A stretch of DNA of 53,296 nt, taken from positions 1 to 53,296 of IMG/VR virus record IMGVR_UViG_3300049484_000358. The stretch is one strand, 5' to 3'. Both the position numbers and the translations under genes were made by a program. The notes beneath the pieces are model-generated. The model worked only from the letters and a program-made list of their open reading frames with translations, was not told where the DNA came from and ran no database searches. Each line of letters opens with the position of its first letter. Positions within the stretch are counted from its first letter, which is position 1. The stretch is from a virus (Duplodnaviria; Caudoviricetes). This document shows, piece after piece, positions 1 to 53,296 of this stretch.

Positions 1-7
1 ACCCACA

Positions 8-38
8 CCCCCCCCCCCCCCCCCGGGGGGGGGGGGGG
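8..38. repeat. Homopolymer tracts C17 (8-24) and G14 (25-38) at the contig start; probable assembly break
   Basis: Read directly. A G13 tract also lies at 53265-53277, followed by a degraded version of the sequence that follows the G tract at the start. Confidence 0.8.
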
Positions 39-65
39 CCGGAAGATGTTTTTCAATCTAGATAT

Positions 66-44342: not shown

Positions 44343-44855
44343 TTAGGCGTGATCGACGATAACAGTCTCGTCAGCAGTCGCGGCCGCAACATCAGCGGTT
44401 GTTTTAGCGACTTTTTCTTTCTTCACTTTCGGGGTCTTGACCGGACGAGGATGGGTCTCGTCAAACCAGCGATCGTCGGCGGCGATGATGCGACCAACCT
44501 CACCAGCGGACCTGCCGGCCAGAGGGCGCAGGTATTCTTCGGACATAAAGTATGCAGTGTTAGCTGCACGATTCAGCGAGTAAGTCTCGCCGCGGGTGGA
44601 GCACTGCATATACTTACGCAGGTAAGAAGCGGTGATGATCACACCGCTATCGTTGTGGATACCCCACGGATTCGGACCTTCAGGAAGTTTCGGTGCTTTG
44701 ACCTTCGCTTCGCCGGCGGGTTTGGGGGCTTTCGCTTTCTTTACTTTGGCCGGGGCAGCTTCAGTCGCCGCTGCTTCTTCCGCCATGATGGCGTCCAGGC
44801 TCAGGCCGTCGTTGTTCAAGCTGTCTTCAATATTTTCCATAAAATCTTTCGCCAT
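44343..44855 (-). CDS. Early protein, paralog 1 of an unknown family; Lys/Ala/Pro-rich tails
   Basis: WGIHNDSGVIITASYLRKYMQC...NRAANTAYFMSEEYL; RBS AAGGAG. Confidence 0.8.
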   Translation of the reverse strand: MAKDFMENIEDSLNNDGLSLDAIMAEEAAATEAAPAKVKKAKAPKPAGEAKVKAPKLPEGPNPWGIHNDSGVIITASYLRKYMQCSTRGETYSLNRAANTAYFMSEEYLRPLAGRSAGEVGRIIAADDRWFDETHPRPVKTPKVKKEKVAKTTADVAAATADETVIVDHA

Positions 44856-50768: not shown

Positions 50769-50802
50769 GTTGAGTCTCCTTTGTCGAAGTGCTTGAGTAT
50801 GG

Positions 50803-50916
50803 GTAGCATCTTCGCGCTCCCTCACTCCGTGGAATGAGGATGAGCAAAACTGCTACAGCGTTTGGGCCGCGGTCCCGGTGCCCGGATCCCTGCTGTCAGG
50901 TAATCCGGGTCACCGG
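50803..50916 (-). ncRNA. Two long hairpins 3' of paralog 2
   Basis: CCGGUG-a-CCCGGAU..CCUG-ACAG-CAGG..AUCCGGG-CACCGG; GUAGCA..UGCUC..CCUCA/UGAGG..GAGCG..UGCUAC. Confidence 0.6.
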
Positions 50917-50938
50917 TGGAACGACCGGGTGGAGCCGA

Positions 50939-51574
50939 TTATTCAGATATTCCCAGGGATTTCGCCAGAGCATCGATGGCATCGGTCTTGCTTGCCACGA
51001 TATCTTCCATCTCAGCCTCTGCCTGGGCTTTCTTCGATTTCCCCTTGGGGGCTTTCGCAATCGCAACCGGCTCGCCAGCGGGCCCGCTCACGATTTCAAT
51101 TTCCGCAACCTTCGCAACTTCGGCAGCCAGTTCAGCGTCGTCCACGACCACTTTCTTCGGGGTCCAGACACCGTCGATGAGTTCGAACTTGGTCATCAGT
51201 TCGGCCATCATCGCGGGAGTTACCCGGTCAACCGGTGAGCCGGCGGACTTGCGAGCGGCGGAGCGGCCAGCGGCCTTGTCGGCATCCGTCCGTCCCCACA
51301 GTTCGCTGAGCGACGCGGCCTTGCCAACCTGCGAAGCCGTCTTGCCGCGCTGGGTGGCGAGGAATTCGTCGGACATGAAGAACGCGAAGTTCGCGTCGCG
51401 GTTCTGGGTGAAGCCGTCACCCGAGCGGCACCAGCACTGGATGTACCGGCGGAGGTAAGCATCGGTCACGATCTCGCCCCGGCCGTTTTTGATCCCGTAC
51501 TTGTTGGCGTTGTCGTCGGTCTCGCTCGCTGCGAATTTGACGAAGGTCTTGGTGGTTCCAGCATTGTCGGTCAT
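50939..51574 (-). CDS. Early protein, paralog 2 of the unknown family
   Basis: YGIKNGRGEIVTDAYLRRYIQCWCRSGDGFTQNRDANFAFFMSDEFLA; RBS AAAGGAG. Confidence 0.85.
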   Translation of the reverse strand: MTDNAGTTKTFVKFAASETDDNANKYGIKNGRGEIVTDAYLRRYIQCWCRSGDGFTQNRDANFAFFMSDEFLATQRGKTASQVGKAASLSELWGRTDADKAAGRSAARKSAGSPVDRVTPAMMAELMTKFELIDGVWTPKKVVVDDAELAAEVAKVAEIEIVSGPAGEPVAIAKAPKGKSKKAQAEAEMEDIVASKTDAIDALAKSLGISE

Positions 51575-51589
51575 TTCAAATCTCCTTTG

Positions 51590-51745
51590 AAAGATTGGAC
51601 TGGGAGAATTCCCATTCACCTGCCCAGCAGTTGCACGGTGGGCCTTGCGGCAATTGGCACTGCTGAGCACGTGGGTGGGAACTCACCACCCAATTGTTAT
51701 TCGATTTTTAAGGTTCGGAAGCTGGGGAAAATCCCCGTTGCTTTA
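51590..51745 (-). ncRNA. Structured ~170-nt 5' leader of paralog 2
   Basis: UGCUCAGCAGU/ACUGCUGGGCA stem with GCC-GCAA-GGC; GAGUUCCCA/UGGGAAUUC competing with UGGGUGG/CCACCCA. Confidence 0.6.
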
Positions 51746-51758
51746 TTCTTACAAGATC

Positions 51759-51825
51759 ATTGTACCATATTGAGTGATCACTGGGGAACTAACATTTGTC
51801 ACGCAATGATCACTCAATTGTCACG
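51759..51825 (-). promoter_or_regulatory. Early promoter with TGACA boxes
   Basis: CGTGACA-32 nt-TACAAT with extended TG. Confidence 0.75.
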
Positions 51826-51829
51826 CAGT

Positions 51830-52042
51830 TTAGAACGCGGTATTGAACCAATCTTTGAACTCAGCCACGGTGTTGAAATACAACTGGACCAGTTCCAAAT
51901 TTCCTTCGAGACTCGCAAAATCTTCGAACTTATCAACGCAGTGTTTTGATTCGGATGCTTCGGTCACAAGTGAAACATTCTCAGTTTCGATAGTGAATTC
52001 GAATTTATTCCCGTTTTCCTCGGCAAGTATTTCGATTTTCAT
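51830..52042 (-). CDS. Small acidic protein (70 aa)
   Basis: MKIEILAEENG..., very E/D-rich. Confidence 0.6.
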   Translation of the reverse strand: MKIEILAEENGNKFEFTIETENVSLVTEASESKHCVDKFEDFASLEGNLELVQLYFNTVAEFKDWFNTAF

Positions 52043-52050
52043 TGGGTTCC

Positions 52051-52311
52051 CTATATGTTTCGCAGATTGTTTTTCTTTGCGCAATCGACGCAAACGTCGA
52101 TGTCGCGCATGTTGCGTACGCAGTGTTTTATGTACGTCATCGAGAAGCCATAGTTGCAGATTTCGCAGTAACCTCGACCTCCGTCCGAACTGTTCATTGT
52201 GTCTTGCCGGATTTTCTCCGGACTTGCATAGCCGCGACGCCCAGACTTACCTCGCGGTAAATCTACTATTCCATTCTGACTCGGATAAGATACTCGATTC
52301 CAATTATTCAT
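52051..52311 (-). CDS. Small Zn-finger protein
   Basis: CEIC ... CVDC; first gene after a promoter. Confidence 0.55.
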   Translation of the reverse strand: MNNWNRVSYPSQNGIVDLPRGKSGRRGYASPEKIRQDTMNSSDGGRGYCEICNYGFSMTYIKHCVRNMRDIDVCVDCAKKNNLRNI

Positions 52312-52364
52312 ACTCTACTCTCTTTCGCAATCTCGAATGTTCGATCATATTTCTTATTATACTC

Positions 52365-52410
52365 ATTATAACGCGCAATATGATTGAGTGTAACGTACTA
52401 AATGTCACTC
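52365..52410 (-). promoter_or_regulatory. Early promoter
   Basis: GTGACA-32 nt-TATAAT; TTACAC-17-TATAAT. Confidence 0.75.
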
Positions 52411-52475
52411 ATAAAGGCTTCCAATATCATGGTTTATTACGTGACAAATGTCAGGCATCGGGCCATGACGTCGGG

Positions 52476-52681
52476 CAGTGACTCACGTGACAAAGGTCAC
52501 TGCTGGGCCGACAGACTATGCGTCGGCGTGCGCCCCGACGCTTCGCTTCAAAAAGTATCGGGGCATCGGGCCCCCACGATCGAGTAACTCGCACGTCCGC
52601 CACGGGCGGAATACCCTCAAAATGAGGGTCCCGTAGCGGGACCGAACTATTCAATTGTCGGGTTAGTCACCTCCCCGATAT
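52476..52681. ncRNA. GC-rich string of hairpins (unnamed structured element)
   Basis: At least 7 hairpins, four with 3-nt loops (52581-91, 52596-610, 52613-29, 52627-43). Confidence 0.55.
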
Positions 52682-52685
52682 TCTG

Positions 52686-52841
52686 TTACCAACCCATAAC
52701 TTTGGCGAACAACTCGATACCATGGGCACTGGGCCCTCCCATCGTGGGGACGTGGAGCGAAGCACCAGCCGAACCGAACACAGTCACTAGGACTAGATAC
52801 GCAACGCCCAGCAGTAACATAACCAACAGTAGCTTTTTCAT
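52686..52841 (-). CDS. Small secreted/membrane peptide (51 aa), not in ORF track
   Basis: MKKLLLVMLLLGVAYLVLVTVFGSAGA...; RBS AAGGAG. Confidence 0.65.
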   Translation of the reverse strand: MKKLLLVMLLLGVAYLVLVTVFGSAGASLHVPTMGGPSAHGIELFAKVMGW

Positions 52842-52854
52842 TGGGAACTCCTTC

Positions 52855-52922
52855 AAAAGTATTGGGCCTCATCGGCACCCGCACTCACGGGTGGACCGGG
52901 GATCGCACCCCCGGTTTCGGCC
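52855..52922 (-). ncRNA. Type II hammerhead ribozyme (U4C core variant)
   Basis: GGCC-GAAA-CCGGGG-loop-CCCCGG-UC-CACCCG-loop-CGGGUG-CCGAUGA-GGCC; GUC cleavage triplet; possible pseudoknot between loop I and the 3' tail. Confidence 0.8.
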
Positions 52923-52926
52923 TGTA

Positions 52927-53241
52927 TTACTGGGCGTCAACCAAGCTGGCGTTCACGAAGTCCTTGCGGGCGTCGCGGGCGGGTTTCGCGGGAGCCGCGT
53001 TCCAGCGGGGGGACAGAGAGGCGAATTTCCCGATTTGCGAAGCCGTGGCACCCGGGTGGGCGGCAAGGAACTCGTCGGACATGAAGTACTCAATGTTGGC
53101 CTTGCGGTTGTGGGTGAACCCGTCGGACACCCGGCACCAGCAGTGGATGTAGCGGCGCAGATAATCTTCGGACACGACATCGCCATCACTGTTGACGATA
53201 CCAAACCGATTCAAACCAAACTTCTCGAATTTCGTAGCCAT
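52927..53241 (-). CDS. Early protein, paralog 3 (minimal domain) of the unknown family
   Basis: FGIVNSDGDVVSEDYLRRYIHCWCRVSDGFTHNRKANIEYFMSDEFLA; RBS AAAGGAG. Confidence 0.85.
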   Translation of the reverse strand: MATKFEKFGLNRFGIVNSDGDVVSEDYLRRYIHCWCRVSDGFTHNRKANIEYFMSDEFLAAHPGATASQIGKFASLSPRWNAAPAKPARDARKDFVNASLVDAQ

Positions 53242-53296
53242 GATGATCTCCTTTCAAGATCAGAGGGGGGGGGGGGGAGGTAGTTTTTTTTCAATA

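What the first reader, a model, noticed from the sequence alone, without database searches (positions are those of the whole stretch)
52855..52922. Type II hammerhead ribozyme 4 nt after the stop of paralog 3
Seen on - strand: GGCC-GAAA-CCGGGG(gugcgau)CCCCGG-UC-CACCCG(ugagug)CGGGUG-CCGAUGA-GGCC-caauacuuu. All three stems are perfect, with G10.1-C11.1, A15.1-U16.1 and a GUC site; predicted cut between 52894 and 52893. Loop I GAGUG can pair with 3' UACUU, the pseudoknot typical of type II hammerheads. The core is CCGAUGA instead of CUGAUGA (U4C), which may slow cleavage. Cleavage would separate the paralog-3 mRNA from the 51-aa peptide mRNA, whose RBS abuts the pseudoknot strand, suggesting cleavage-coupled translation control.
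Basis: partly seen in the sequence, partly recalled or inferred. Interest (0 to 1): 0.85.

Follow-up and report, generated by a model that had tools for sequence, protein, structure and literature searches.

The report
Phage hammerhead ribozyme, C4 core variant
A real self-cutting "hammerhead" RNA motif sits between the first early gene and a small membrane-peptide gene of this uncultured phage; it is an ordinary kind of phage element whose one odd core letter (C for U at position 4) recurs in many phage hammerheads, and whether this copy still cuts is untested.

Summary
The motif is in the sequence exactly as described, on the - strand at 52922-52865, with the predicted cut between 52894 and 52893. 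It is not chance. A covariance model built from 42 related phage hammerheads, without this one, scores it 58.7 bits (E 2e-14), and it is the only copy in the window.

It belongs to a large phage subfamily of type II hammerheads with a 7-bp stem I, a 3-4-nt loop and a 4-bp open stem II. Members sit between a stop codon and the next ribosome-binding site.

The U4-to-C change is neither an assembly error nor a one-off:
- Contigs from three studies keep C4 while flanking coding DNA diverges.
- IMG/VR holds 36 further distinct, fully paired C4 hammerheads of this subfamily.

The proposed loop I/3' tail pseudoknot is not supported. Complementarity across the subfamily equals shuffled controls, and one relative changes the loop with no matching change in the tail.

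Rfam RF02276 gives only 25.3 bits against a cut-off of 37, but consensus-core relatives mostly score below the cut-off too. Self-cleavage and any control of translation are untested.

This scan has already reported C4 phage hammerheads on other DNA. Verdict: a new member of a known kind, of modest interest.

The parts
52927..53241 (-). Upstream ORF ('paralog 3', 104 aa, function unknown), first ORF of the leftward arm; stop codon TAA at 52929-52927
   Evidence: paralogs at about 44466-44705 and 50939-51670. No Pfam or PHROG family. Atlas leads are weak.
52865..52922 (-). Type II hammerhead ribozyme motif, short-loop-I subfamily, C4 core variant
   Evidence: Subfamily model R1 58.7 bits, E 2e-14. 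Rfam RF02276 25.3 bits, below the cut-off of 37.
52919..52922 (-). Stem II, 5' strand (11.4-11.1); pairs with 52868-52865
   Evidence: covarying pairs in relatives.
52895..52918 (-). G12-A14 (52918-52916) and the stem III hairpin from A15.1 (52915) to U16.1 (52895)
   Evidence: G12, A13, A14, A15.1 and U16.1 are invariant in 128 of 128 distinct relatives.
52893..52894 (-). Predicted cleavage site: C17 (52894) then C1.1 (52893)
   Evidence: Position follows from the hammerhead consensus. Cleavage itself was not tested.
52876..52893 (-). Stem I hairpin (6 Watson-Crick pairs plus a U.G, 4-nt loop)
   Evidence: The same stem I sequence occurs in 28 IMG/VR hammerheads. Relative X5 changes the loop to 3 nt with a U-A closing pair.
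52869..52875 (-). Core box C3-A9, with C at position 4 (52874) instead of U
   Evidence: C4 is kept in contigs of runs X1, X2 and X5. 36 other distinct C4 hammerheads with all stems paired in IMG/VR.
52865..52868 (-). Stem II, 3' strand (10.1-10.4)
52848..52853 (-). Shine-Dalgarno AAGGAG of the 51-codon ORF, 11 nt after the end of stem II
   Evidence: In the family the next SD-preceded start lies a median 23 nt after the hammerhead.
52686..52841 (-). 51-aa ORF with a hydrophobic N-terminus (small membrane or secreted peptide)
   Evidence: The frame stays open and 45 of 51 residues are kept in the diverged X2 relative, despite 19 listed substitutions and two compensating indels.
52627..52643 (-). 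Terminator-like hairpin plus T-run after the peptide ORF (consensus match only)

Best explanation
This is a genuine hammerhead ribozyme of the phage type II short-loop-I subfamily, carried in the 85-nt spacer of a two-gene early transcript (unknown 104-aa protein, hammerhead, 51-aa membrane peptide). Shown: homology and structure, typical placement, and conservation of the C4 form. Inferred: the RNA folds as it is transcribed and cuts itself between C17 (52894) and C1.1 (52893), probably more slowly than U4 relatives. The upstream message would then end in the stem III hairpin with a 2',3'-cyclic phosphate. The downstream message would start with a 5'-OH and the stem I hairpin, about 40 nt ahead of the RBS. 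The two cistrons would so gain independent stability and translation, which is the processing role proposed for phage hammerheads in PMC3088659.
For: A model built from 42 relatives without the window scores this site 58.7 bits, E 2e-14. The next best site in the window scores 14.1 bits. The same stem I sequence and a 4-bp stem II occur in 28 IMG/VR hammerheads. The subfamily shows strong covariation: 13 of 17 pairs change on both sides, score 0.641 against 0.171 in shuffles. Context is typical: 104 of 128 distinct relatives start within 15 nt of an upstream ORF end, and 87 of 128 have an SD-preceded start within 30 nt downstream. Here the distances are 4 nt and 23 nt. C4 is conserved. The X2 contig has 19 listed differences in 52728-52826 but none listed in 52827-52907. 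The X5 contig changes only loop I, keeping the structure, while its other contig differs at 16 of 150 positions in the upstream gene. C4 recurs: 38 distinct pattern matches in IMG/VR, 36 with all three stems paired although the pattern did not require pairing. In the C4-only alignment 99.8% of cells are paired and the covariation score is 0.733 against 0.163. Among 128 distinct hammerheads found without regard to the core, the deviations at conserved core positions are 3 U4C, 2 A9C, 1 C3U and 1 U at position 17 (allowed by the consensus), and none at G5, A6, G8 or G12-A15.1. A second C4 copy with the same stems lies in an unrelated bacterial contig, L116. Passages of PMC3088659 report a U4C viroid hammerhead that is weak in vitro but sufficient in vivo.
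Against: No cleavage data exist, and no RNA holder was listed. Rfam RF02276 gives 25.3 bits, below its cut-off of 37; nothing reached the gathering score, and the whole-window all-family E-value is 0.66. The genome search on the window's own record with RF02276 returned no match. All 28 IMG/VR copies with the identical stem I have U4. PMC9901934 (passages) reports low activity for single mutants of the CUGA turn. None of the 16 loci encoding homologs of the upstream gene has a hammerhead; they carry other hairpins, so the element is not tied to that gene. In a 141-nt context the minimum-free-energy fold replaces stem II with a long-range helix, which could limit cleavage. Selection on stems shows that structure matters, not that catalysis does.
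Confidence: 0.68

Rival explanations
1. A hammerhead-derived structure that no longer cuts at a useful rate. U4C disabled catalysis, and the two GC-rich hairpins persist as an intergenic mRNA-stabilising or spacing element.
For: U4 lies in the uridine turn. Single mutants there have low activity (PMC9901934, passages), and U4C 'considerably decreases activity in vitro' (PMC3088659, passage). All 28 closest IMG/VR relatives keep U4. Homologs of the upstream gene are followed by plain hairpins, so a hairpin alone may serve at this position.
Against: C4 copies keep every other core position and all three stems through many compensatory changes. A mere hairpin spacer would not need GAAA, the rest of the 7-nt box or stem II. 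Deviations are absent at G5, A6, G8 and G12-A14, as expected if catalysis is still under selection. C4 has persisted in diverged relatives.
Confidence: 0.24
2. A chance resemblance to the hammerhead consensus in a GC-rich intergenic region.
For: The Rfam score is below the cut-off, and the whole-window all-family E-value is 0.66.
Against: 0 of 600 random windows gave a hit with comparable stems. The subfamily model gives E 2e-14. Stem I is identical to that of 28 phage hammerheads.
Confidence: 0.01
3. C4 is an assembly or sequencing error, and the real phage carries the consensus U4.
For: It is a single base in a metagenome assembly. The two relatives' contigs have low depth (2.2 and 4).
Against: Contigs from three different studies (X1, X2, X5) show no difference at 52874. 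36 other distinct C4 hammerheads exist in IMG/VR.
Confidence: 0.01

Closest known systems
Type II hammerhead ribozymes of bacteria, prophages and phages (Rfam RF02276; Perreault et al. 2011, PMC3088659; sections 6-8 and passages of the Discussion read)
   Same: [quoted passage not shown] The core is GAAA, A15.1-U16.1, a GUC site and the 7-nt box, with G10.1-C11.1. The motif is intergenic and co-oriented within a phage operon.
   Different: Loop I is short (4 nt) and there is no supported loop I/3' tail pseudoknot. Stem II has 4 bp. Position 4 of the core is C. The score is below the Rfam cut-off, as it is for 10 of 11 consensus-core relatives of the same architecture listed.
Short-loop-I phage type II hammerheads in IMG/VR
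   Same: Same architecture; for 28 of them the same stem I sequence. All sit tightly between a stop codon and the next RBS.
   Different: Those 28 have U4 and a 3-nt loop I. This copy has C4 and a 4-nt loop (27 of 229 distinct subfamily members have 4-nt loops).
Natural U4C hammerhead of a viroid (Ambros and Flores 1998, cited in PMC3088659; the paper itself is not held)
   Same: The same core substitution. It is reported there as strongly reduced in vitro but sufficient in vivo.
   Different: It is a viroid hammerhead in a replicating circular RNA, not a phage mRNA element.
Other natural core-variant phage hammerheads (A6C of phage Bcep176; PMC3088659 section 8; PMC7151607 abstract and introduction)
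   Same: A phage intergenic hammerhead with a single core deviation that lowers Mg2+-dependent activity.
   Different: A different position. A6C shifts metal preference towards Mn2+; nothing comparable is known for C4.

Membership tests
Hammerhead ribozyme, type II | Three-way junction with stems I and III closed by loops and stem II open | tested here: met
   stems of 4, 9 and 7 pairs, and the minimum-free-energy fold equals the junction.
Hammerhead ribozyme, type II | Conserved core: C3 U4 G5 A6 N7 G8 A9, G12 A13 A14, A15.1-U16.1, H17, G10.1-C11.1 | tested here: not met
   Every position matches except U4, which is C (52874). The same deviation occurs in 36 other distinct, fully paired natural copies and is reported for a viroid (PMC3088659 passage). 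I treat it as a known variant state, not as grounds for exclusion.
Hammerhead ribozyme, type II | Score at or above the curated Rfam cut-off (RF02276, 37 bits) | tested here: not met
   25.3 bits. However, only 1 of 11 consensus-core short-loop relatives listed reaches 37 bits, so the cut-off excludes this subfamily generally.
Hammerhead ribozyme, type II | Significant match to a covariance model of close relatives built without the candidate | tested here: met
   R1: 58.7 bits, E 2e-14, full length 1-66 of 66.
Hammerhead ribozyme, type II | Loop I/3' tail pseudoknot (found in a majority of type II copies according to PMC3088659; not universal) | tested here: not met
   In the subfamily, complementarity of at least 4 bp occurs in 21.4% of copies against 19.9% of shuffles. 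X5 changes the loop with no listed change in the tail.
Hammerhead ribozyme, type II | Site-specific self-cleavage 3' of H17 | not testable with these tools
   No RNA holder was listed. Needs an in vitro or in vivo assay.
Phage intergenic hammerheads | Co-oriented, between a stop codon and the next RBS of an operon | tested here: met
   4 nt after the stop and 23 nt before the ATG. Family: 104 of 128 within 15 nt of an ORF end, 87 of 128 within 30 nt of a start.

The most novel reading that the evidence does not exclude
C4 hammerheads form a functionally distinct, selected subclass of phage type II hammerheads. They would be slow or condition-dependent cutters (for example dependent on pH, Mn2+ or ribosome release) that phages use to tune how much of a transcript is split, rather than weakened copies. 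C4 copies keep all other core positions and all stems through many compensatory changes. They may also favour G-C pairs next to the core: the 1.1-2.1 pair is C-G in 21 of 36 C4 copies against 36 of 139 U4 copies (uncorrected p 0.002 over about 30 features).
Probability: 0.25. Interest if true: 0.55.

Novelty: new member of a known kind. Interest (0 to 1): 0.27.

Why it matters
For this phage, the motif marks a likely RNA-processing point that uncouples the first early gene from a small membrane-peptide gene. More generally, position 4 of the hammerhead core is treated as invariant, and Rfam's type II model misses most of this short-loop subfamily. A sizeable natural population of C4 copies with intact stems suggests that the core tolerates, or exploits, this change in a compact type II scaffold. 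That is cheap to test at the bench and is useful for ribozyme annotation and design. The point is not new to this scan, which had already recorded several C4 phage hammerheads.

Tried and rejected
**Rfam and genome searches.** The Rfam scan of the window at gathering threshold found nothing. The genome search on the window's own record with RF02276 returned 0 matches, with 5 candidates scored.

**Phage database.** blastn of 50800-53296 against 'phages' gave no match.

**Loose motif search.** A loose GAAA...TC...CNGATGA pattern gave 9 matches against 5.2 expected, which is uninformative.

**Synteny.** The upstream gene's homologs were found in 16 loci from 15 contigs. None has a hammerhead. The only descriptor hit was a spurious AT-rich one with 2/3/3-bp stems in L005. 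Conservation therefore had to be sought through the RNA itself.

**Function of the upstream protein.** Pfam and PHROGs gave nothing. The Atlas leads share only 102-120 of 256 features and are not trusted.

**Pseudoknot.** Rejected.

**A compensating change linked to C4.** Only weak associations, not significant after correction.

**C4:U4 ratio.** It cannot be given, because the U4 scan was truncated at 120 stretches.

**Genome-contig scan.** Of 18 matches, 13 are chance matches in GC-rich DNA without the GAAA/stem III part, judged by eye from the flanks printed. Five are hammerheads (L106 twice, L112, L114, L116). L116 is cut by its contig end, so only its 3' two-thirds is seen.

**RNA evidence.** No RNA holder was listed. 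All runs laid were contigs, so no ends or expression could be read. Differences within about 31 nt of a contig end are not listed, so X2 and X5 say nothing certain about 52908-52922.

**Literature.** 'hammerhead' with 'U4C' found only PMC3088659. 'hammerhead' with 'CCGAUGA' found only an unrelated therapeutic-ribozyme paper. So I found no description of a C4 population in phage hammerheads in the held library. Supplements (Dataset S1, Figures S6 and S7 of PMC3088659) were closed and may list such variants. Ambros and Flores 1998 is not held.

Full report
**What is there**

The window is a whole IMG/VR virus record of 53,296 nt, estimated 98% complete. Genes run rightward up to about 26.9 kb and leftward from 53,241 down to about 27.1 kb. 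On the - strand, the first leftward ORF is 53241-52927 (104 aa). It has two paralogs in the window. An 85-nt spacer follows, and then a 51-codon ORF (52841-52686) with an AAGGAG 6 nt before its ATG.

- a 4-bp open stem II;
- GAAA;
- a stem III hairpin that starts with A15.1-U16.1;
- a GUC site, with the cut predicted between 52894 and 52893;
- a stem I hairpin;
- the 7-nt core box with C instead of U at position 4 (52874);
- G10.1-C11.1.

The minimum-free-energy fold of the 81-nt stretch is exactly this junction.

**Is it more than chance?**

My descriptor finds this one site on both strands of the window. In random sequence with the window's dinucleotide statistics, 17 of 600 window-equivalents had any relaxed hit and 0 of 600 had one with stems of at least 4/6/6 bp. 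With the local GC-rich composition the figures were 4 of 600 and 0 of 600.

Rfam alone is not convincing. Nothing reached the gathering score. RF02276 gives 25.3 bits against a cut-off of 37, with E 0.0027 on 221 nt and E 0.66 for the whole window against all families. The genome search with RF02276 on the window's own record returned nothing.

**Relatives**

Synteny did not help. Sixteen loci (15 contigs) encode homologs of the upstream protein. None has a hammerhead after the gene; they carry assorted hairpins instead.

Searching IMG/VR with pieces of the RNA itself did help. The stem III pattern matched 57 stretches and the stem I-plus-core pattern matched 28. These loci hold 108 descriptor hits, often several per phage.

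Forty-two distinct copies share this copy's architecture: a 7-bp stem I with a 3-4-nt loop and a 4-bp stem II. Their stems covary strongly. 97.5% of cells are paired, 13 of 17 pairs change on both sides, and the covariation score is 0.641 against 0.171 in shuffles. These rows were chosen by a filter that required pairing, so the paired percentage is partly built in.

A covariance model built from these 42 without the window scores the window site 58.7 bits, E 2e-14, over its full length. The next best site scores 14.1 bits. This phage therefore has a single hammerhead, and it is a clear homolog of this subfamily.

Rfam's sub-threshold score reflects the subfamily, not this copy. Of 11 consensus-core relatives listed, only 1 reaches 37 bits; the rest score 30-35.

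**Context**

Among 128 distinct hammerheads in these loci, 104 begin within 15 nt of the end of an upstream ORF (median gap 1 nt), and 87 have an SD-preceded start within 30 nt downstream (median 23 nt). In the window the gaps are 4 nt and 23 nt to the ATG. The script itself picked an earlier TTG for the window, which I discount.

A terminator-like hairpin follows the peptide ORF (52643-52627). Promoter-like sites lie across the presumed circular junction. The hammerhead thus probably sits inside a two-gene transcript, but this rests on consensus matches only.

**The C4 letter**

All 28 IMG/VR copies with the identical stem I have U4. Even so, C4 here is neither an error nor a fresh lesion.

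Contigs of three studies were laid on the region:
- X1 is the probable source and is identical.
- X2 has 19 listed differences in 52728-52826, inside the peptide ORF. That ORF stays open, with 45 of 51 residues kept. X2 has no listed difference in 52827-52907, which covers the core with C4, stem I, the cut site and half of stem III.
- X5 differs only in loop I. Two substitutions and a 1-nt deletion turn the hairpin into the family's usual 7 bp with a 3-nt loop and a U-A closing pair. X5's other contig differs at 16 of 150 positions in the upstream gene.

A pattern for C4 copies of the subfamily found 44 IMG/VR stretches, with 49 matches and 38 distinct sequences. Of these, 36 have all three stems paired, although the pattern left 5 pairs of stem I, stem II and stem III free. 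The C4-only alignment (35 of these 36 plus the window copy) is 99.8% paired, with a covariation score of 0.733 against 0.163. Some copies in the same genomic position have wholly different stems but keep C4 (L135 and L137).

Among the 128 distinct hammerheads collected without regard to the core, the deviations at conserved core positions are 3 U4C (one being this copy), 2 A9C, 1 C3U and 1 U at position 17, which the consensus allows. There are none at G5, A6, G8 or G12-A15.1. A further C4 copy with the same stems I and II lies in a bacterial contig that shares nothing else with this phage (L116); it is cut by the contig end.

Passages of PMC3088659 say that a U4C viroid variant is much less active in vitro yet sufficient in vivo. 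PMC9901934 (passages) finds low activity for single mutants of the CUGA turn.

**The pseudoknot**

Across 229 distinct subfamily members, complementarity of at least 4 bp occurs in 21.4% against 19.9% of shuffled tails, and of at least 5 bp in 5.7% against 6.0%. Of the 229, 202 have 3-nt loops. X5 alters the loop with no listed change in the tail. I reject the pseudoknot for this copy.

**Mechanism**

Shown: homology, structure, placement and conservation of the C4 form.

Inferred: co-transcriptional self-cleavage at 52894/52893, probably slow. It would yield an upstream mRNA ending in the stem III hairpin and a downstream mRNA starting with a 5'-OH and the stem I hairpin ahead of the RBS. This matches the processing role proposed for phage hammerheads (PMC3088659, section 6).

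In a 141-nt context the minimum-free-energy fold keeps stems I and III but replaces stem II with an 11-bp long-range helix between the end of the upstream ORF and codons 10-13 of the peptide ORF. If real, that helix would narrow the time window for cleavage. I could not test its conservation.

The main rival is a structure that is retained but catalytically spent. The intact remainder of the core in all C4 copies argues against it.

**Comparison and verdict**

This is a new member of a known kind: the phage type II hammerheads of Perreault et al. 2011. It carries the recurrent C4 core variant and belongs to a short-loop architecture that Rfam's model scores poorly. Earlier reports of this scan reached the same view of C4 hammerheads on other phages, and I reproduced the key claim independently. 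Interest is modest.

Noticed in passing
window 52803-52813 with 52928-52938 (- strand): An 11-bp long-range helix (with G.U pairs) can form between the last codons and stop of the upstream ORF and codons 10-13 of the 51-aa ORF. It would enclose the hammerhead and the RBS. The 141-nt fold has z = -3.41, and 0 of 200 shuffles fold as well. In that fold stem II of the hammerhead is displaced.
   Followed up: partly
window 44343-44855, 50939-51670, 52927-53241 (- strand): Three paralogs of an unknown protein family with a conserved core motif; 25 columns are invariant in the 4-sequence alignment. No Pfam or PHROG hit. Homologs in 15 other viral or metagenome contigs are each followed by a different hairpin.
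   Followed up: partly
window 1-60 and 53255-53296: Both ends of the record carry long C/G homopolymer runs followed by a similar T-rich motif. The source run's contig overlaps itself there. The record is probably a circular or terminally redundant genome broken at a homopolymer.
   Followed up: partly
L071 and L052 (one 64.8-kb IMG/VR contig); L098; L119: Some phages carry very dense hammerhead arrays. R1 finds about 20 in 14.6 kb of L071, the descriptor finds 9 in 4 kb of L098, and L119 has 8 U4 plus 2 C4 copies. Nearly every small gene there is preceded by one. In L119 the two C4 copies are the most downstream of the array.
   Followed up: no
L074, L081, L090, L091, L095, L100 and L031: Several subfamily members have an extra U between A9 and G10.1.
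   Followed up: no
window 52559-52643 (- strand): Two terminator-like hairpins sit in tandem after the 51-aa ORF, followed by promoter-like sites at 52454-52303. This suggests the first two ORFs form their own short transcription unit.
   Followed up: no
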